A DNA stretch of 64,000 bases from an uncultured Acetobacteraceae bacterium (GCA_964235615.1 CAXSEE010000001.1:200-64199); one strand, 5' to 3'; numbered from the stretch's first letter, positions 44,302-51,752 are shown. Made by a program: numbers and translations. The notes: a model not told the origin generated them from the letters alone.

Positions 44302-44664
44302 TCCATATCCGCTGCCCGTTCACAGCACGCGCCTGACGGTGCGACTGAGCCGGAGCAGCCTCGTCTGCGTCCAGGTCAAAGCCAGTCAGCCGGTCTACCC
44401 AGCGGTAGCTCCGCCTCACATGACCGATGAACAGGCCGGCGAGTGCAACGTTGTTGTTGGATCGAACCCGAACCGATTCCCGGAGTGGGATCAATCGGCC
44501 TTCGCAGGTCTCCCGTTGGTGCGACCCGGCGGCAGCTCGGTCCTCCGCCTTGACATCCTGGGCCTGGACACCGCCCTGTCTTGCCGCATCGTTCCATGCC
44601 GGCTCCGGTAACCGCCTATGGTACTGGAGCGTTAGATTGCCCGACAGGGAAGGTTCCAGGGTTC

Positions 44665-45861
44665 ATGCGGCATATCCATCTCGATCCGCTGGGCGGCACC
44701 GCCGGCGACATGTTCGTCGCCGCCATGCTCGACGGCTTCCCGGAACATCAAGACGATGTGATCCGCGCGGTGCAGGGGCTCGCCGGGGTTGCCTGCCGGC
44801 TGGTGGCCCATGATGACGGCACGCTTACGGGCCGGCGCTTCGAGGTGGATGAACCGGTCCATGATCACGCGCATCATCATCACCATGATCACACGCACTG
44901 GAGCGAGATTCGCGGCCGTCTCGAGGTCGCCGACCTGCCGCCGCTGGTCAGGCAGCATGCGATCGGCATCTTCACCGGCTTGGCCGAGGCGGAAGCGCGG
45001 GTGCATGGCGTGTCGCCGGACGAGGTGGTGTTCCACGAGGTCGGCGCCGCGGACTCCATTGCCGATATCGTCGCCGCGGCCTGGATGATCGCCGCGATCG
45101 GCCCGGCGAGCTGGAGCATCGCACCTCTGCCGATCGGTTCCGGCCGCGTCCACACCGCACATGGCTGGATGCCGGTTCCGGCGCCGGCCACGGCTATCTT
45201 GCTGGAGGGGTTCGCGACCCATGACGACGGTGTGCCGGGCGAGCGGGTGACGCCGACCGGAGCCGCGATCCTGCGTCATCTCGGCGGCACCACTGGCCGC
45301 CGCCCGGCTGGCATACTGCGCCGGTCCGGCTTCGGTTTCGGCACGCGCAAGCTGCCCGGGCTCAGCAATTGCCTGCGCGTGCTGGTGTTCGACGCCGAAC
45401 AGGCCGAGGCTAAGGCCGCCGGGCATCGGGAGCTGGCGGTGGTCAGCTTCGAGATCGACGACCAGTCGGGCGAGGAACTGGCAGCCGGGCTCGCGCGTGT
45501 GCGCGGCATCGATGGCGTGCATGACGTCGTCCAGATGGCGGCGTTCGGCAAGAAAGGGAGATTTGCGGTGCATGTGCAGGTCCTGGCTCGTCCCGATACG
45601 CTCGAAGCCGTGATCGCGGCCTGCTTCAGCGAGACCACGACGATCGGCCTGCGTACGCATATCGTGCAGGGACGGGCATTGACGCGGCGTTTCGCCGACG
45701 TGCCGGTGGAGGGTCGCGAGGTGCGGGTGAAACTGGTCGAGCGTCCCGATGGCGTGACTGGCAAGGTGGAGGCGGATCACGTGCAAGGTCTCGCCGGGCA
45801 TGCGGCGCGAACCCGTCTGCGACGCGATGCCGAACGCCGCGCGGAGGACGGCCTGGAATGA
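44665..45861 (+). CDS. larC: Nickel-pincer cofactor nickel insertase
   Basis: HLDPLGGTAGDMF, His-rich HDHAHHHHHDHTH, FHEVGAADSIADI, TPTGAAIL, IDDQSGE, ETTTIGLR. Confidence 0.92.
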   Translation: MRHIHLDPLGGTAGDMFVAAMLDGFPEHQDDVIRAVQGLAGVACRLVAHDDGTLTGRRFEVDEPVHDHAHHHHHDHTHWSEIRGRLEVADLPPLVRQHAIGIFTGLAEAEARVHGVSPDEVVFHEVGAADSIADIVAAAWMIAAIGPASWSIAPLPIGSGRVHTAHGWMPVPAPATAILLEGFATHDDGVPGERVTPTGAAILRHLGGTTGRRPAGILRRSGFGFGTRKLPGLSNCLRVLVFDAEQAEAKAAGHRELAVVSFEIDDQSGEELAAGLARVRGIDGVHDVVQMAAFGKKGRFAVHVQVLARPDTLEAVIAACFSETTTIGLRTHIVQGRALTRRFADVPVEGREVRVKLVERPDGVTGKVEADHVQGLAGHAARTRLRRDAERRAEDGLE

Positions 45862-46679
45862 GCATGACCCCCCTGGAGCGGCTCCACGCTGAATTATCCA
45901 GCCTGGACCAGGCAGCGATCGCCGTCAGCGGCGGCATCGACAGCCTGACCCTGGCCACGGCGGCGCACCGGCTGCTCGGCGCGCGTGTAAGTATGCATCA
46001 CGCGACGTCGCCGGCGGTGCCGGGCGAGGCGACCGCGCGCACGCGAGCCCTGGCAGCGCGTGAAGGCTGGTCGCTGGACGTGTTCGACGCCGGCGAGTTC
46101 GACGATCCCGATTATCGCGCGAACCCGGTCAACCGCTGCTTCTTCTGCAAGACCAACCTGTATGGAGCCGTGGCAGGGCGGACCGCGCGGACCATTCTGT
46201 CCGGCACCAATCTCGATGATCTCGGCGAGTATCGTCCCGGGCTTGACGCGGCGCGGCGATATGCGGTCCGGCATCCCTTCGTGCAGGCGCAGATCGACAA
46301 GCGGACGGTGCGCGCCCTGGCATTGCAGCTCGGGATGGGCCAACTCGGGCTGGGGGACCTGTCGGAGCTGCCATCGGCGCCCTGTCTTTCGAGCCGCATC
46401 GAGACCGGCATCCGGATCGAGCCGCGCGTGCTCTCGATGGTGCATGAAGTGGAGAAGCACGTGATCCTGACGCTGGCCCCACGCACCGTGCGTTGCCGCG
46501 TGCGCGCCGGCGGCATGGTCATCGAGCTGGACCAGGCTGCCTTGGACGCCCTGGATGCCGGGCGGACTGCACAGCTCGGCACCGAGCTGGCGGCGTTCGG
46601 ACGCGCGGCCGGCCTGGATGGGCCGGTCGGTTTCGCGCCCTATCGCAACGGCAGTGCCTTCGTGCGCAGGCTCGCATGA
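45858..46679 (+). CDS. larE: Nickel-pincer cofactor ATP-dependent sulfur transferase
   Basis: PP-loop SGGIDS, NRCFFCK, GTNLDDLGEYRPG, PSAPCLSSRI; ATGA-coupled. Confidence 0.92.
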   Translation: MSMTPLERLHAELSSLDQAAIAVSGGIDSLTLATAAHRLLGARVSMHHATSPAVPGEATARTRALAAREGWSLDVFDAGEFDDPDYRANPVNRCFFCKTNLYGAVAGRTARTILSGTNLDDLGEYRPGLDAARRYAVRHPFVQAQIDKRTVRALALQLGMGQLGLGDLSELPSAPCLSSRIETGIRIEPRVLSMVHEVEKHVILTLAPRTVRCRVRAGGMVIELDQAALDALDAGRTAQLGTELAAFGRAAGLDGPVGFAPYRNGSAFVRRLA

Positions 46680-47326
46680 GCGATTTCACCCTCGATGAGG
46701 AGCGGACCGGCCGTATCGGCTTCGGCGAGGCGGTGTTCTGCGCCGGCAAGTCGGTGGCGCAGATCGCGTCGATCCTGTCCGCGGCCAAGGCACCGATGCT
46801 GCTGACACGGCTGGAGCCGGAGCGATTTGCCGAATTGCCTGCGACGCAGCGGGATCTTCTCGATTACGATCCGCTCTCCCGCACCGCGTTCTCCGGGGCG
46901 CCGGCCGCACTCGCCGGGCCGGCGCGGATCGCGATCGTCACCGCCGGGACCTCGGACCTGCCGGTGGCGCGGGAAGCCGCCAGGACGCTCGCCTTCAACG
47001 GCCATGACGCGACGCTGATCGCCGATGTCGGCGTGGCCGGCTTGTGGCGGCTGATGCGCCGACTGGAGACATTGCGCAGCGTGCCGGTGCTGATCGTCGC
47101 GGCTGGTATGGATGCCGCACTGCCGAGCGTGATCGGTGGCCTGGTCGCCGGCGTGATCATCGCAGTCCCCACCTCGGTGGGATACGGCGTCGCCGCCGGT
47201 GGTCACACCGCCCTGAACGCCATCCTGGCGAGCTGTGCGCCGGGTATTGTAACCGTCAACATCGATAACGGCTATGGCGCAGCCTGTGCCGCCATGCGCG
47301 TGTTGGGAATGGGATCCGGGGCCTAG
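46676..47326 (+). CDS. larB: Nickel-pincer cofactor carboxylase/hydrolase (PurE-like)
   Basis: R.GFGEAVFCAGK, AGTSDLPVA, DVGVAGLWRL, AGMDAALPSV, PTSVGYG, NIDNGYGAA; ATG 46676. Confidence 0.93.
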   Translation: MSDFTLDEERTGRIGFGEAVFCAGKSVAQIASILSAAKAPMLLTRLEPERFAELPATQRDLLDYDPLSRTAFSGAPAALAGPARIAIVTAGTSDLPVAREAARTLAFNGHDATLIADVGVAGLWRLMRRLETLRSVPVLIVAAGMDAALPSVIGGLVAGVIIAVPTSVGYGVAAGGHTALNAILASCAPGIVTVNIDNGYGAACAAMRVLGMGSGA

Positions 47327-47350
47327 GCTCCACCGATAGGAGAGTTCACC

Positions 47351-48403
47351 ATGGAAAGACGCAGCTTCATCAAGGCTACAGCCCTGGGAGTGGCGGCAGC
47401 CGCCGCAGCCAAGGTCGCGCATGCCCAGGTCGAGACCAGCCAGGGAGGGGTGGTGCGCGCCACCGGGCCGGTGACCTCGCGGATTGCCGAACATCCGGAC
47501 ATGAAATACCGCCCGCTTGGCCGCACCGGCGAGCGCGTGTCGCTGGTCGGCATGGGGGGATACCACCTGGCCAAGCCGGGAGGTGCGACCAACGCCGAGG
47601 CGACCCGGCTCGTGCATGCGGGGATCGAGGCGGGCATCAACTTCTGCGACAATTGCTGGGACTATAACGGCGGCGAGAGCGAGGTTCGGCTCGGCCGCGC
47701 ACTGACGCAAGGCTGGCGCAACCGCGTCTTTCTCATGACCAAGATCGACGGCCGCACCGCCAAGGCAGCGATGAGCCAGATCGAGCAGTCTCTCACCCGG
47801 CTGCAGACCGACCATGTCGACCTGTTGCAGTTCCACGAGATCATCCGCATGGACGATCCCGAGCGGGTATTCGCCCAGGGTGGCGCGCTGGAAGCCGTGC
47901 TCAAGGCACGCGAGCAGGGCAAGCTGCGCTACATCGGCTTCACCGGGCACAAGAGCCCGGCGATTCACAAGCATATGTTCGACGTGGCCGACCAGCATGA
48001 TTTCCACTTCGACACCGTGCAGATGCCGCTGAACGTCATGGATGCGCATTTCGACAGCTTCGAGCAGGGCGTGCTGCCGGTCGCCCTGGCGCATGGCACG
48101 GCGGTGATGGGCATGAAGGCGTTCGGCGACCCGTTCATCCTCGACACCAAGGCGGTGTCGCCGATCGAGATGCTGCACTATCCGATGAGCCTGCCGATCG
48201 CGTTGCAGATCACCGGCATCGACAAGATGGAGATCCTGCATCAGGCGTTGGAGGCCGTGCGTACCTTCAAGCCGTTCACCCCCGAGCAGCGCGCGTCGAT
48301 CCTCGATCGCACGGCCGAACTGGCGAAGGACGGACATACCGAGAAGTACAAGATTTCGCATCAGTTCGACGGAACGGTGCATAACCCGCAATGGCTGGGC
48401 TAG
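47351..48403 (+). CDS. Tat-exported aldo-keto reductase-fold protein, candidate nickel-pincer-dependent enzyme
   Basis: MERRSFIK...AHA signal; DNCWDY, FLMTK, DLLQFHE, GFTGHK, MPLN, MKAFG; RBS AGGAGAG, 24 bp after larB. Confidence 0.85.
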   Translation: MERRSFIKATALGVAAAAAAKVAHAQVETSQGGVVRATGPVTSRIAEHPDMKYRPLGRTGERVSLVGMGGYHLAKPGGATNAEATRLVHAGIEAGINFCDNCWDYNGGESEVRLGRALTQGWRNRVFLMTKIDGRTAKAAMSQIEQSLTRLQTDHVDLLQFHEIIRMDDPERVFAQGGALEAVLKAREQGKLRYIGFTGHKSPAIHKHMFDVADQHDFHFDTVQMPLNVMDAHFDSFEQGVLPVALAHGTAVMGMKAFGDPFILDTKAVSPIEMLHYPMSLPIALQITGIDKMEILHQALEAVRTFKPFTPEQRASILDRTAELAKDGHTEKYKISHQFDGTVHNPQWLG

Positions 48404-49425
48404 CCGGGTCAGGCCTCGGCCTGCGCATCTCGCTTCTGTGCGGTGGATTGATCGCAGCCAACGTTGCAGTCTGGGTCTGGGTGCTCGTTGCCTTTCACGC
48501 CTATCCGCTGCTGCTCGGAACGGCACTTCTGGCCTACGGGCTGGGACTGCGTCACGCGGTGGATGCCGATCATATAGCGGCCATCGACAACGTCATGCGG
48601 ACGCTGATGCAGTCCGGGCAGCGCCCTGTCGGCGTGGGACTGTTCTTTTCCCTTGGCCATTCGACCATCGTCGTGGCGGCTTCCATCGCCATCGCGGCTA
48701 CGGCCATGGCGTTCCGGTCACGCCTGGAAGTGTGGCACGACATCGGCGGGGTTGTCGGCACGCTGGTCTCGTCGGTGTTTCTCCTGGCCATCGCGGCGAT
48801 GAACATCGTCATCCTGCTGTCCGTGCGACGCAGCTTTCGCAGGCTGCGCCGGGGCGAGCCGGTCGAGGCAGGCGAGCTCGATCTGCTGCTGGCCGGCGGC
48901 GGACTGCTGTCGCGCATCTTCCGCCCGCTGTTCGGCAGGATTGCCCGAAGCTGGCAGATGTATCCGCTCGGCGTGCTGTTCGGGCTCGGTTTCGACACGG
49001 CGACCGAGGTCGGCCTGCTCGGCATCTCCGCGGCAGAAGCCTCGCACGGTCTGCCGATCTGGTCGATCCTGGCCTTTCCGGCCCTGTTCACCGTCGGCAT
49101 GTCGCTCGTCGACAGCATCGACAGCGTGCTCATGCTGGGCGTGTATGGCTGGGCCTTCGTCAAGCCGGTGCGAAAGCTCTACTACAATATGGTGATCACG
49201 CTGGTTTCCATCGTGGTCGCCGTGCTGATCGGCGGCATCGAGGCGCTCGGGTTGCTCGGGCAGCAATTCGCCTTGCACGGCCTGTTCTGGGACATGGTCG
49301 CCGCGCTGAACGACAACTTCGGCCTGATCGGCTACTGCGTCATCGCCGTCTTCGTTCTCGCCTGGGTGGGGGCTGCGATACTCTATCGCGCACGCGGCTA
49401 TGACCGGATCGAAGTGCAGATCTAG
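48391..49425 (+). CDS. High-affinity nickel/cobalt permease (NiCoT, HoxN/NixA family)
   Basis: GLRHAVDADHIAAID, FFSLGHST, GLGFDTATEV; multiple TM segments; overlaps the AKR end by 13 nt. Confidence 0.93.
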   Translation: MAGLAGSGLGLRISLLCGGLIAANVAVWVWVLVAFHAYPLLLGTALLAYGLGLRHAVDADHIAAIDNVMRTLMQSGQRPVGVGLFFSLGHSTIVVAASIAIAATAMAFRSRLEVWHDIGGVVGTLVSSVFLLAIAAMNIVILLSVRRSFRRLRRGEPVEAGELDLLLAGGGLLSRIFRPLFGRIARSWQMYPLGVLFGLGFDTATEVGLLGISAAEASHGLPIWSILAFPALFTVGMSLVDSIDSVLMLGVYGWAFVKPVRKLYYNMVITLVSIVVAVLIGGIEALGLLGQQFALHGLFWDMVAALNDNFGLIGYCVIAVFVLAWVGAAILYRARGYDRIEVQI

Positions 49426-51020: not shown

Positions 51021-51752
51021 ATGTCGCATACCCGTAACGTCGTTCGCCTGACCTTTACCCTGCCGTTCCTGCTTGCCCTGGGCGCTTGCGTCACCCCGCC
51101 GCCGAGCGGGCCGAGCTTCACCGCCCTGCCTGCGGATGGCAAGACCTTCGATCGCTTCTCGGCCGAGGATAATTACTGCCGCCAGGCAGCGCTGAGCCGT
51201 AGCGGCTATTCGGGCAGCAGCGGCGCCAACTCTACCTTGGGCGGCGCTGGCGTTGGAACCCTGGTCGGAGCCGCCGGCGGAGCACTGCTTGGAGCAGCTG
51301 CGGGAAATCCTGGTATCGGTGCGGCGGCAGGAGCAGGGACCGGCCTGCTGTTCGGGTCGGCGATCGGCTCCAACAACGGCTCCTTCGATGAAGCGACCGT
51401 GCAGCATAACTACGATAGCACCTATGCCCAGTGCATAGCCTCATACGGCAACAAGGTGCCTTCCGCCGGACAGATCAGCTCCTATCCTGTCTCCTCCGGT
51501 TATGGCGGCTACGGCGGATATGGCGGTTACGGCGGCTATGGCGGCTACGGCTTCGGTTATGGCGGTTACTACCCGGGCTACGCGTTTGGCTACGGTTATC
51601 CGTTCTTCGGGCCCGGTTTCGGCTACGGCTTCGGCTTCGGTGGTTTCTATGGCCGTGGCTATGGCTATGGTCGTGGTTATGGCGGCGGCTACGGCGGCGG
51701 CTTCCATGGCGGCGGCTTCCATGGTGGTGGTGGAGGTGGTGGCCGCCGCTAG
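51021..51752 (+). CDS. Lipoprotein with glycine-zipper domain and Gly/Tyr/Phe-rich low-complexity tail
   Basis: Lipobox LGAC; GAGVGTLVGAAGGALLGAAAG zipper; (GYG)n and GGGFHGGGFH tail. Confidence 0.8.
   Translation: MSHTRNVVRLTFTLPFLLALGACVTPPPSGPSFTALPADGKTFDRFSAEDNYCRQAALSRSGYSGSSGANSTLGGAGVGTLVGAAGGALLGAAAGNPGIGAAAGAGTGLLFGSAIGSNNGSFDEATVQHNYDSTYAQCIASYGNKVPSAGQISSYPVSSGYGGYGGYGGYGGYGGYGFGYGGYYPGYAFGYGYPFFGPGFGYGFGFGGFYGRGYGYGRGYGGGYGGGFHGGGFHGGGGGGGRR

What the first reader, a model, noticed from the sequence alone, without database searches (positions are those of the whole stretch)
47351..48403. AKR features that fit a bound mononucleotide cofactor
Seen: strong Tat signal (RRSFIK); tetrad-like Asp/Tyr/Lys/His with an unusual Cys (DNCWDY); the region where AKRs usually have IPKS...R..EN for the adenosine-phosphate end of NADPH reads QITGIDKMEILHQAL; an extra tail EKYKISHQFDGTVHNPQWLG supplies Lys and His. 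Established: Tat exports folded, cofactor-loaded proteins; the periplasm lacks a NADPH pool; LarA tethers the cofactor through Lys and ligates Ni with His. Inference: adenosine site lost, tail acts as cofactor anchor or lid. The alignment is by eye.
Basis: partly seen in the sequence, partly recalled or inferred. Interest (0 to 1): 0.65.

Follow-up and report, generated by a model that had tools for sequence, protein, structure and literature searches.

The report
Exported nickel-pincer aldo-keto reductase
This gene most likely encodes an aldo-keto reductase that carries a covalently bound nickel-pincer cofactor made by its three upstream neighbours instead of NADPH, and is then exported fully loaded to the periplasm; the enzyme class was first described in June 2026, but the export has not been reported.

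Summary
It is the fourth gene of a tight larC-larE-larB-AKR-nicO operon.

Its closest solved relative is NphT (PDB 9YEB, Nat Chem 2026). NphT is the founding aldo-keto reductase (AKR) that depends on the nickel-pincer mononucleotide (NPMN).
- Profile alignment matches the catalytic tetrad (D100, Y105, K131, H162).
- His200 aligns with the nickel ligand His144 of NphT.
- Lys256 aligns with the covalent anchor Lys200 of NphT.
- All six residues are invariant in close homologues and differ in the five ordinary AKRs of the same genome.

Comparative genomics agrees.
- 50 of 62 related loci have larCEB directly upstream.
- In 81 genera of the family, the AKR occurs only where LarC occurs.
- 7 of the 11 genomes with the AKR have no LarA.

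Its details do not hold. The anchor and the nickel ligand lie in the barrel, not the tail. The tail histidines and the "unusual Cys" are not conserved. Only an E-x-Y/F-K tail motif is conserved.

The enzyme class is already published. The Tat-exported clade appears undescribed.

The parts
44665..45861 (+). larC, the CTP-dependent nickel-inserting cyclometallase. It has a His-rich stretch HDHAHHHHHDH. The ORF opens at 44581; the likely start is MRHIHLDPLGG at 44665.
   Evidence: Pfam PF01969 E = 1.9e-94. NCBIfam LarC1 and LarC2 both score above their cut-offs. Start checked.
45858..46679 (+). larE, the ATP-dependent sacrificial sulfur transferase. It overlaps the larC stop by 4 nt.
   Evidence: NCBIfam TIGR00268 E = 2.5e-67, 226.9 bits against a cut-off of 150.
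46676..47326 (+). larB, the NaAD carboxylase/hydrolase that releases AMP and yields the mononucleotide precursor. Its start, MSDFTL, overlaps the larE stop (ATGA).
   Evidence: NCBIfam NF033503 E = 4.5e-73, 245 bits against a cut-off of 175. Coordinates checked.
47338..47343 (+). Ribosome-binding site AGGAGA, 7 nt upstream of the AKR start codon.
   Evidence: Sequence read.
47351..48403 (+). NphT-like aldo-keto reductase, 350 aa. It is the predicted client of the nickel-pincer cofactor.
47351..47425 (+). Twin-arginine signal peptide, aa 1-25: MERRSFIK, then ATALGVAAAAAA, then KVAHA, cleaved before Q26.
   Evidence: TIGR01409 scores above its cut-off. The RR is invariant in homologues. TatC is present in the genome.
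47648..47836 (+). Span holding the catalytic tetrad codons: D100 (47648-50), Y105 (47663-65), K131 (47741-43), H162 (47834-36). They correspond to NphT D47, Y52, K75 and H106.
   Evidence: HMMER alignment to 9yeb_A. All four are invariant. Codons checked.
47942..47950 (+). T198-G199-H200. H200 is the predicted nickel ligand (NphT H144) and T198 corresponds to NphT T142. Ordinary AKRs have S-N or S-S here.
48113..48118 (+). M255-K256. K256 is the predicted covalent thioamide anchor of the cofactor (NphT K200). M255 corresponds to NphT I199, which stacks on the pyridinium ring. Ordinary AKRs have (Y/W)-S-P-L here.
   Evidence: hhalign and multiple alignment. K256 is kept in 118 of 118 close homologues.
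48206..48250 (+). The beta8-alpha8 stretch QITGIDKMEILHQAL. It replaces the I-x-G-A-S/T-R/K...Q...N motif that binds the adenosine and 2'-phosphate in ordinary AKRs. G289 and D291 are invariant.
   Evidence: Alignment with five ordinary AKRs of the same genome and with NphT. Invariance.
48323..48400 (+). Conserved C-terminal tail, aa 325-350. The core motif is E331-x-Y333-K334 (48341-48352), followed by FDGT..NP.WLG. Probable AKR 'loop C' lid. It is not the covalent anchor.
   Evidence: Invariant residues. The E-x-aromatic-K motif is conserved in distant Tat-bearing representatives. pLDDT is 75-81.
48391..49425 (+). nicO, a nickel/cobalt permease of the HoxN/NixA family. Its ORF overlaps the AKR stop.
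   Evidence: Pfam PF03824 E = 3.5e-99. TIGR00802 scores 397.7 bits against a cut-off of 333.

Best explanation
The gene encodes a nickel-pincer mononucleotide (NPMN)-dependent aldo-keto reductase of the NphT kind, made as a Tat precursor.

Proposed course of events:
1. NicO imports nickel.
2. LarB, LarE and LarC convert NaAD into NPMN in the cytoplasm.
3. NPMN is tethered as a thioamide to Lys256 of the folded TIM barrel, and His200 completes the nickel coordination.
4. The Tat system exports the holo-enzyme through its RRSFIK signal, which is cleaved after AHA25.
5. In the periplasm, where there is no NAD(P)H pool, the tethered pyridinium C4 accepts a hydride from one substrate (alcohol or hemiacetal). 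Tyr105 acts as the general base, tuned by Asp100, Lys131 and His162.
6. The hydride is passed to a second carbonyl substrate. This is a redox-neutral ping-pong reaction (disproportionation or transhydrogenation).

The substrates are unknown; sugars or polyols are the best guess.

Shown here: the operon, the homology and motif matches, the phylogenomic co-occurrence and the signal-peptide features.

Inferred: cofactor loading, export, the reaction and the role of the tail.
For: 1. Operon. larC, larE, larB, the AKR and nicO lie on one strand with overlaps or gaps of at most 24 nt.

2. Closest solved relative.
- The best PDB sequence hit is NphT 9yeb_A, E = 9.4e-28 against 1.3e-16 for the next hit.
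- With a family profile the values are 1.4e-31 against 3.4e-24.
- hhalign of the family against the NphT clade gives probability 99.9, E = 1.2e-35, over 258 columns.

3. Residue matches to NphT: D100/D47, Y105/Y52, K131/K75, H162/H106, T198/T142, H200/H144, M255-K256/I199-K200.
- All are invariant in 39 homologues.
- H200 and K256 are kept in 118 of 118 close homologues.
- 46 of 53 representatives of 50%-identity clusters keep both.
- NphT was shown to bind NPMN covalently through K200, with H144 on nickel (PMC13524815).

4. Contrast within the genome. Five ordinary AKRs carry the S-N, (Y/W)SPL and GAS(R/K)..Q..N motifs at these three sites.

5. Neighbourhood. larC-larE-larB lies directly upstream in 50 of 62 related loci with enough flank. 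NicO appears in 17 loci.

6. Co-occurrence across 81 genera of the same family.
- LarC is present in 13 and the AKR in 11, and all 11 are LarC-positive. Fisher p = 6e-12.
- LarA is absent from 7 of those 11, including four genomes that are 98-100% complete.
- Of 11 genomes whose AKR is not next to lar genes, 10 have LarC elsewhere.

7. Paralogues. The genome has one lar set and three such AKRs. Orthologues of the two paralogues sit beside lar clusters in other genomes.

8. Tat export. The TIGR01409 match, the invariant RR and the presence of TatC support it.

9. Fold. The AF2 model is a TIM barrel with pLDDT 85, and Foldseek returns AKRs.
Against: - There is no biochemical or localisation data for this protein or its clade.
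- HMMER aligns only aa 49-231 with NphT. The K256/K200 match rests on profile-profile and multiple alignment, at 32% identity.
- NphT's cofactor-contacting W218/Y219 loop is absent here.
- 9YEB is not in the Foldseek library, and model coordinates could not be inspected. Neither the cavity size nor the position of the tail was measured.
- This genome also has a LarA on another contig. The lar genes therefore have a second possible client here.
- About a fifth of related loci lack adjacent lar genes, and one genome with the AKR shows no LarC.
Confidence: 0.74

Rival explanations
1. It is a periplasmic AKR that keeps a tightly bound NADP(H), as Zymomonas glucose-fructose oxidoreductase does. The lar genes next to it would serve the LarA encoded elsewhere in the genome.
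For: The genome has a LarA on contig C35. GFOR and the Caulobacter AAOR show that Tat export of nicotinamide-loaded oxidoreductases exists (PMC4628093).
Against: The residues that bind the NADPH carboxamide, pyrophosphate and 2'-phosphate in ordinary AKRs are replaced by the NphT His/Lys motif and an invariant Asp291. The lar-AKR linkage holds in 50 of 62 loci. Seven of 11 AKR-bearing genomes have no LarA.
Confidence: 0.06
2. It is an NPMN-dependent AKR that stays in the cytoplasm. The N-terminal RR sequence would not be a working export signal.
For: NphT and one paralogue in this genome (C12) have no signal peptide. The TIGR01409 score is only modestly above its cut-off. Export was not tested.
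Against: The RR-x-F-I/L-K motif, hydrophobic region and AxA site are conserved in 117 of 118 homologues. They recur in at least 27 of 53 distant cluster representatives that have otherwise unrelated N-termini. Pfam TAT_signal is on record for several homologues. TatC is present.
Confidence: 0.1
3. It binds a different pincer form, either the dinucleotide NPAD or NPMN held non-covalently.
For: The NphT paper leaves both options open for some AKR homologues.
Against: The lysine is present and invariant. The paper links the His+Lys pair to covalent binding. A full LarB equivalog, which releases AMP, is in the operon. The adenosine-site residues are not conserved.
Confidence: 0.05
4. One reading: the C-terminal tail supplies the covalent lysine and the nickel-binding histidine.
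For: K334 in the tail is invariant, and an E-x-Y/F-K motif is conserved across the Tat-bearing clade. The NphT W218/Y219 loop is missing, so something else must contact the cofactor.
Against: H337 and H344 vary. K256 and H200 align with the experimentally proven K200 and H144 of NphT and are invariant. NPMN needs only one lysine tether.
Confidence: 0.03

Closest known systems
NphT, the NPMN-dependent hydride transferase of Alicyclobacillus cellulosilyticus (PDB 9YEB; Semersky et al., Nat Chem 2026, PMC13524815)
   Same: AKR TIM barrel. Same catalytic tetrad. T-x-H nickel ligand and hydrophobic-Lys covalent anchor at the same positions. A shared GGALEA insertion. Replaced adenosine-site residues. 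[quoted passage not shown]
   Different: - Only about 32% identity, and the HMMER alignment stops two-thirds of the way along.
- NphT has no signal peptide; this protein has a Tat signal plus a 25-aa conserved linker.
- The W218/Y219 loop is deleted here.
- This protein has a conserved 25-aa tail with E-x-Y-K where NphT ends in SPFG.
- The host is a Gram-negative Acetobacteraceae genome, and nicO is in the operon.
LarA lactate racemase and its superfamily
   Same: Same cofactor and the same binding logic (Lys thioamide plus His on nickel). Depends on LarB, LarE and LarC.
   Different: Unrelated fold (no Lar_N domain). LarA is a cytoplasmic racemase/epimerase of 2-hydroxy acids with two catalytic histidines. 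Here an AKR Tyr/Lys/Asp/His tetrad is present.
Glucose-fructose oxidoreductase of Zymomonas mobilis and aldose-aldose oxidoreductase CC1225 of Caulobacter crescentus (PMC4628093)
   Same: Works alike. These are Tat-signal periplasmic enzymes that carry their own nicotinamide-type hydride carrier. They run redox-neutral sugar-to-sugar hydride transfer (aldose to lactone plus alditol), which is also the reaction NphT performs.
   Different: Gfo/Idh/MocA Rossmann fold. The cofactor is non-covalently bound NADP(H), with no nickel and no lar genes.
Ordinary NAD(P)H-dependent AKRs (for example AKR11C1 1YNP, AKR14A1/YghZ 4AUB, and five AKRs of this genome)
   Same: Same fold and same catalytic tetrad. 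They are the top Foldseek hits (TM-score 0.61-0.66 normalised to the query, 0.66-0.79 to the target).
   Different: They have S-N after beta5, (Y/W)SPL after beta7 and GAS(R/K)..Q..N after beta8 for NADPH. They also have a 35-45-aa loop B that is absent here, and they lack a signal peptide.

Membership tests
NPMN-dependent AKRs (NphT family) | AKR (alpha/beta)8 barrel fold | tested here: met
   PF00248 E = 1.2e-26. The AF2 model has pLDDT 85 with eight strand/helix repeats. Foldseek gives probability 1.0 to many AKRs.
NPMN-dependent AKRs (NphT family) | Catalytic tetrad Asp/Tyr/Lys/His (NphT D47, Y52, K75, H106) | tested here: met
   D100, Y105, K131 and H162 are aligned residue by residue with 9yeb_A and are invariant.
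NPMN-dependent AKRs (NphT family) | Nickel-ligand histidine after beta5 (NphT T142-x-H144) | tested here: met
   IGFTGH aligns with IGITGH. It is invariant in 39 homologues and kept in 118 of 118.
NPMN-dependent AKRs (NphT family) | Covalent-anchor lysine after beta7 (NphT I199-K200) | tested here: met
   VMGMKAF aligns with LMTIKAI in hhalign and MAFFT. K256 is invariant. This match rests on profile alignment, not on structure.
NPMN-dependent AKRs (NphT family) | Cofactor cavity too small for the AMP half of NAD(P) | tested here: inconclusive
   At sequence level the beta8-alpha8 NADPH motif is replaced (ITGID..., with invariant D291) and loop B is deleted. No cavity could be measured, and 9YEB is not in the Foldseek library.
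NPMN-dependent AKRs (NphT family) | Polar contacts from the W218/Y219 loop | tested here: not met
   A 16-residue gap lies opposite NphT's ATWYEPFD loop. The paper uses this as a contact in NphT, not as its family criterion (the His/Lys motif).
NPMN-dependent AKRs (NphT family) | Genomic association with larB, larC and larE | tested here: met
   The genes share an operon here. The linkage holds in 50 of 62 loci. All 11 AKR-bearing genera are LarC-positive, p = 6e-12.
NPMN-dependent AKRs (NphT family) | Covalent +450 Da NPMN adduct, bound nickel and hydride-transfer activity | not testable with these tools
   This needs protein chemistry.
Tat substrates | S/T-R-R-x-F-L-K motif, a moderately hydrophobic h-region, a basic c-region and an AxA cleavage site | tested here: met
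   The signal reads MERRSFIK-ATALGVAAAAAA-KVAHA|Q. TIGR01409 scores 20.1 bits, above the 16.7 cut-off. It is conserved in 117 of 118 homologues.
Tat substrates | A Tat translocase in the same genome | tested here: met
   TatC PF00902 E = 5.4e-70 on contig C18.
Tat substrates | Demonstrated tat-dependent export | not testable with these tools
   This needs fractionation or reporter assays.
Ordinary NAD(P)H-dependent AKRs | Residues binding the nicotinamide carboxamide (S/N after beta5), the pyrophosphate (SPL after beta7) and the 2'-phosphate/adenine (S/T-R/K...N after beta8) | tested here: not met
   All three motifs are replaced, while five AKRs of the same genome keep them.
LarA superfamily | Lar_N domain (PF09861) | tested here: not met
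   This protein has only PF00248. The genome's one Lar_N protein is on contig C35.

The most novel reading that the evidence does not exclude
This protein would represent a large, phylogenetically broad clade of Tat-exported His/Lys AKRs.
- At least 27 of the 53 nearest 50%-identity clusters with intact N-termini carry both the His/Lys pair and a Tat signal.
- 470 clusters match at E <= 1e-30.
- At least 592 matching stretches were found in the scan of species genomes.

These would be the first nickel-pincer enzymes that work outside the cytoplasm. They would act as self-contained hydride shuttles that let bacteria run redox-neutral carbonyl/alcohol chemistry in a compartment without NAD(P)H. 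That would be a nickel-based counterpart of glucose-fructose oxidoreductase.

The conserved C-terminal E-x-Y/F-K motif would take over the cofactor contacts made by the W218/Y219 loop of NphT. The cytoplasmic NphT clade would be a derived side branch of this mainly exported radiation.
Probability: 0.55. Interest if true: 0.7.

Novelty: new variant of a known kind. Interest (0 to 1): 0.55.

Why it matters
Nickel-pincer AKRs were described only in June 2026, from one cytoplasmic enzyme whose natural substrate is unknown.

If this clade really is exported with its cofactor attached, three things follow.
- Nickel-pincer chemistry reaches the periplasm.
- It would explain why a covalently tethered cofactor that needs no recycling was selected: it needs no NAD(P)H pool.
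- It would add a new kind of cargo to the Tat pathway.

It would also account for the many genomes that have larBCE but no LarA. In this bacterial family, 7 of the 11 AKR-bearing genomes surveyed are of that type.

Practically, it offers a compact five-gene unit (cofactor synthesis, nickel uptake and client enzyme) for testing loading and export in laboratory strains. It also corrects the routine annotation 'diketogulonate reductase-like aldo/keto reductase'.

Tried and rejected
- Structural superposition on NphT. The Foldseek PDB library ends on 8 April 2026 and lacks 9YEB, so the top hits are ordinary AKRs (1YNP, 8JWN). The cavity and the position of the tail could not be measured.
- HMMER alignment to 9YEB, by single sequence and by profile, stops at about aa 231. 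The lysine match needed the full NphT sequence, recovered through a homologue search, and then hhalign.
- The supplement of the NphT paper is not held. I could not check whether this protein or its clade is among the paper's 427 lar-linked or 798 His/Lys AKRs.
- A search for further conserved neighbours that might name the substrate found nothing recurrent beyond lar, nicO and paralogous AKRs.
- The dienelactone-hydrolase neighbour of the C28 paralogue is not conserved in the related loci.
- Promoter and terminator scans gave nothing above background.
It varies C/S, and the neighbouring Cys99 varies C/F.
- The tail histidines were rejected as nickel ligands because they are not conserved.
- Literature searches for 'nickel-pincer' with 'periplasm' (0 papers), and for 'aldo-keto reductase' with 'twin-arginine' and 'periplasmic' (2 irrelevant papers), found no prior description of export.

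Full report
**The observation.** Translating window 47351-48403(+) gives a 350-aa ORF. An AGGAGA ribosome-binding site lies 7 nt upstream. Pfam recognises an aldo-keto reductase (AKR) domain only over aa 66-266, which is profile positions 2-200 of 291. So the C-terminal third, where ordinary AKRs hold the adenosine end of NADPH, really is aberrant. NCBIfam's twin-arginine model scores above its cut-off.

**Context.** The gene is fourth in a tightly packed same-strand block.
- larC: PF01969, E = 1.9e-94.
- larE: TIGR00268, above its cut-off.
- larB: NF033503, above its cut-off.
- The AKR.
- A HoxN/NixA-type nickel permease.

Neighbouring genes overlap or are at most 24 nt apart. This is the genome's only lar set. 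One LarA homologue exists on another contig.

**What is known.** A literature search found Semersky et al., Nat Chem 2026 (PMC13524815).
- By mining lar clusters that lack larA, the authors found AKRs that co-occur with larBCE in 427 instances.
- They characterised one, NphT, and showed that it binds the nickel-pincer mononucleotide (NPMN) covalently through Lys200, with His144 on the nickel.
- NphT keeps the AKR tetrad D47/Y52/K75/H106 and has a cavity too small for NAD(P).
- It catalyses intermolecular hydride transfer, disproportionating aldoses into lactones and alditols (PDB 9YEB).
- The paper never mentions Tat, signal peptides or the periplasm.

**Homology to NphT.**
- 9yeb_A is by far the best PDB sequence match: E = 9.4e-28 against 1.3e-16 for the next hit. 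With a family profile the values are 1.4e-31 against 3.4e-24.
- The HMMER alignment pairs D100, Y105, K131, H162, T198 and H200 with NphT D47, Y52, K75, H106, T142 and H144. It then stops near aa 231.
- I recovered the full NphT sequence (P0272), aligned 20 members of its clade and compared profiles.
- hhalign gives probability 99.9, E = 1.2e-35, over 258 columns. Our VMGM-K256-AF lies on NphT's LMTI-K200-AI.
- A multiple alignment adds the five ordinary AKRs of this genome. The NPMN type reads FTGH, GMKAF and ITGID. The ordinary enzymes read G(A/V/C)S(N/S), (Y/W)SPL and I(I/A)GA(S/T)(R/K)..Q...N.
- The NPMN type also shares a GGALEA insertion.
- In 39 aligned homologues of at least 69% identity, all these residues are invariant.
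- H200 and K256 are kept in 118 of 118 close homologues and in 46 of 53 representatives of 50%-identity clusters.
- The AF2 model is a confident TIM barrel (pLDDT 85). Foldseek returns ordinary AKRs, because 9YEB is newer than that library.

**Comparative genomics.**
- The scan of species genomes returned at least 592 related stretches.
- Of the 80 loci kept, 62 have enough upstream sequence. In 50 of these, larC-larE-larB lies directly upstream on the same strand. NicO appears in 17 loci and a second paralogous AKR in 10.
- Across 81 genera of the same taxonomic family, LarC occurs in 13 and this AKR family in 11. All 11 are among the LarC-positive genomes (Fisher p = 6e-12).
- LarA is absent from 7 of those 11, including four genomes that are 98-100% complete. 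There the AKRs are the only visible clients of the cofactor pathway.
- Of 11 genomes whose AKR is not next to lar genes, 10 carry LarC elsewhere.
- This genome has two paralogues at 52-55% identity. One has a Tat signal and one does not. Their orthologues sit beside lar clusters in other genomes.

**Export.** The N-terminus reads MERRSFIK, then ATALGVAAAAAA, then KVAHA|Q. That is a near-consensus twin-arginine motif, an Ala-rich hydrophobic region, a basic c-region and an AxA cleavage site.
- The RR is invariant in the alignment and present in 117 of 118 close homologues.
- Under a strict filter, at least 27 of 53 distant cluster representatives with intact N-termini carry both a Tat signal and the His/Lys pair. 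Their signal peptides are otherwise unrelated in sequence.
- TatC is present in the genome.
- LarB, LarE and LarC have no signal peptides, so the cofactor must be made and attached in the cytoplasm. This is what Tat export of folded, cofactor-loaded proteins allows (established knowledge).
- A tree separates all His/Lys AKRs from the genome's ordinary AKRs with 100/100 support. It places the long-branched NphT clade among Tat-bearing lineages, but the exact position is weakly supported.

**The tail.**
- H337, H344 and K332 vary.
- The experimentally proven anchor and ligand of NphT align with K256 and H200.

The tail is not meaningless, however.
- E331, Y333, K334, F339, D340 and T342 are invariant.
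- An E-x-(Y/F/W)-K motif sits a few residues from the C-terminus in nearly all distant Tat-bearing representatives.
- The 16-residue NphT loop carrying W218/Y219, which contacts the cofactor, is deleted here.
- In AKRs generally, the C-terminal 'loop C' closes over the active site (established knowledge).

I infer that the tail is a lid whose Tyr/Lys may replace those contacts or bind the substrate. This could not be tested, because no coordinates were available.

**Mechanism and analogues.** The most likely mechanism is a ping-pong hydride shuttle on the tethered pyridinium, with Tyr105 as the acid/base, as proposed for NphT. The closest functional analogues are Zymomonas glucose-fructose oxidoreductase and Caulobacter aldose-aldose oxidoreductase. 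Both carry Tat signals and perform redox-neutral sugar-to-sugar hydride transfer in the periplasm (PMC4628093). The substrate here is unknown, and no conserved neighbour hints at it.

**Novelty.** The enzyme kind is known from a paper published five months before this scan. This protein is a divergent member, about 32% identical to NphT. What seems undescribed is the Tat-exported clade with its own C-terminal motif. Searches for 'nickel-pincer' with 'periplasm' found nothing.

Earlier AI notes of this scan reached similar readings in other genomes. I treat them as agreement, not as evidence.

**Limits.** The paper's supplement is not held.

Noticed in passing
G000:C28:17-2216 (own genome, outside the window): A second Tat-signal His/Lys AKR (52% identical; MDRRTLFRRAAATGLL...). 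Its stop overlaps the start of a gene for a secreted dienelactone-hydrolase-family protein (PF01738, E = 1e-13). A lactone hydrolase beside such an enzyme would fit a lactone product. The pairing was not seen in the related loci examined.
   Followed up: partly
G000:C12:23086-26015 (own genome, outside the window): A third His/Lys AKR (55% identical) has no signal peptide. It lies between a zinc-type alcohol/polyol dehydrogenase and a short-chain dehydrogenase. Its orthologues (82-86% identical) lie next to lar clusters in L011, L039, L043, L057 and L066.
   Followed up: partly
G000:C35:7332-9805 (own genome; locus L001): The genome's only LarA homologue (448 aa) lies far from the lar genes. 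An ordinary NADPH-type AKR is encoded immediately beside it on the opposite strand (C35:8819-9805), and a LysR-like ORF lies on that same opposite strand and overlaps the LarA gene.
   Followed up: no
window 51021-51752 (+): A lipoprotein-like ORF with a long Gly/Tyr-rich C-terminal repeat (GYGGYGGYGG...GRGYGYGRGYGGG). A similar protein recurs about 1.2 kb downstream of the AKR in four related loci (for example L008:10488-11246).
   Followed up: no
window 46640-48526 (-): A 628-aa open frame on the opposite strand spans larB and the AKR. It is probably a shadow ORF of this GC-rich DNA, since the + strand genes have strong family matches. It was not scanned against family libraries.
   Followed up: no
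tree (proteins P0122-P0391): The cytoplasmic NphT clade sits on a very long branch (1.78 changes per column) among Tat-bearing His/Lys AKR lineages. The exported form may be the commoner or older state. Support for the exact placement is weak (85/21).
   Followed up: partly
L075 (uncultured Acidobacteriaceae MAG) and its genome G085: This is the one genome that has a 56%-identical AKR with no LarC detected anywhere. Either the assembly has a gap or this member works without the pincer pathway.
   Followed up: no
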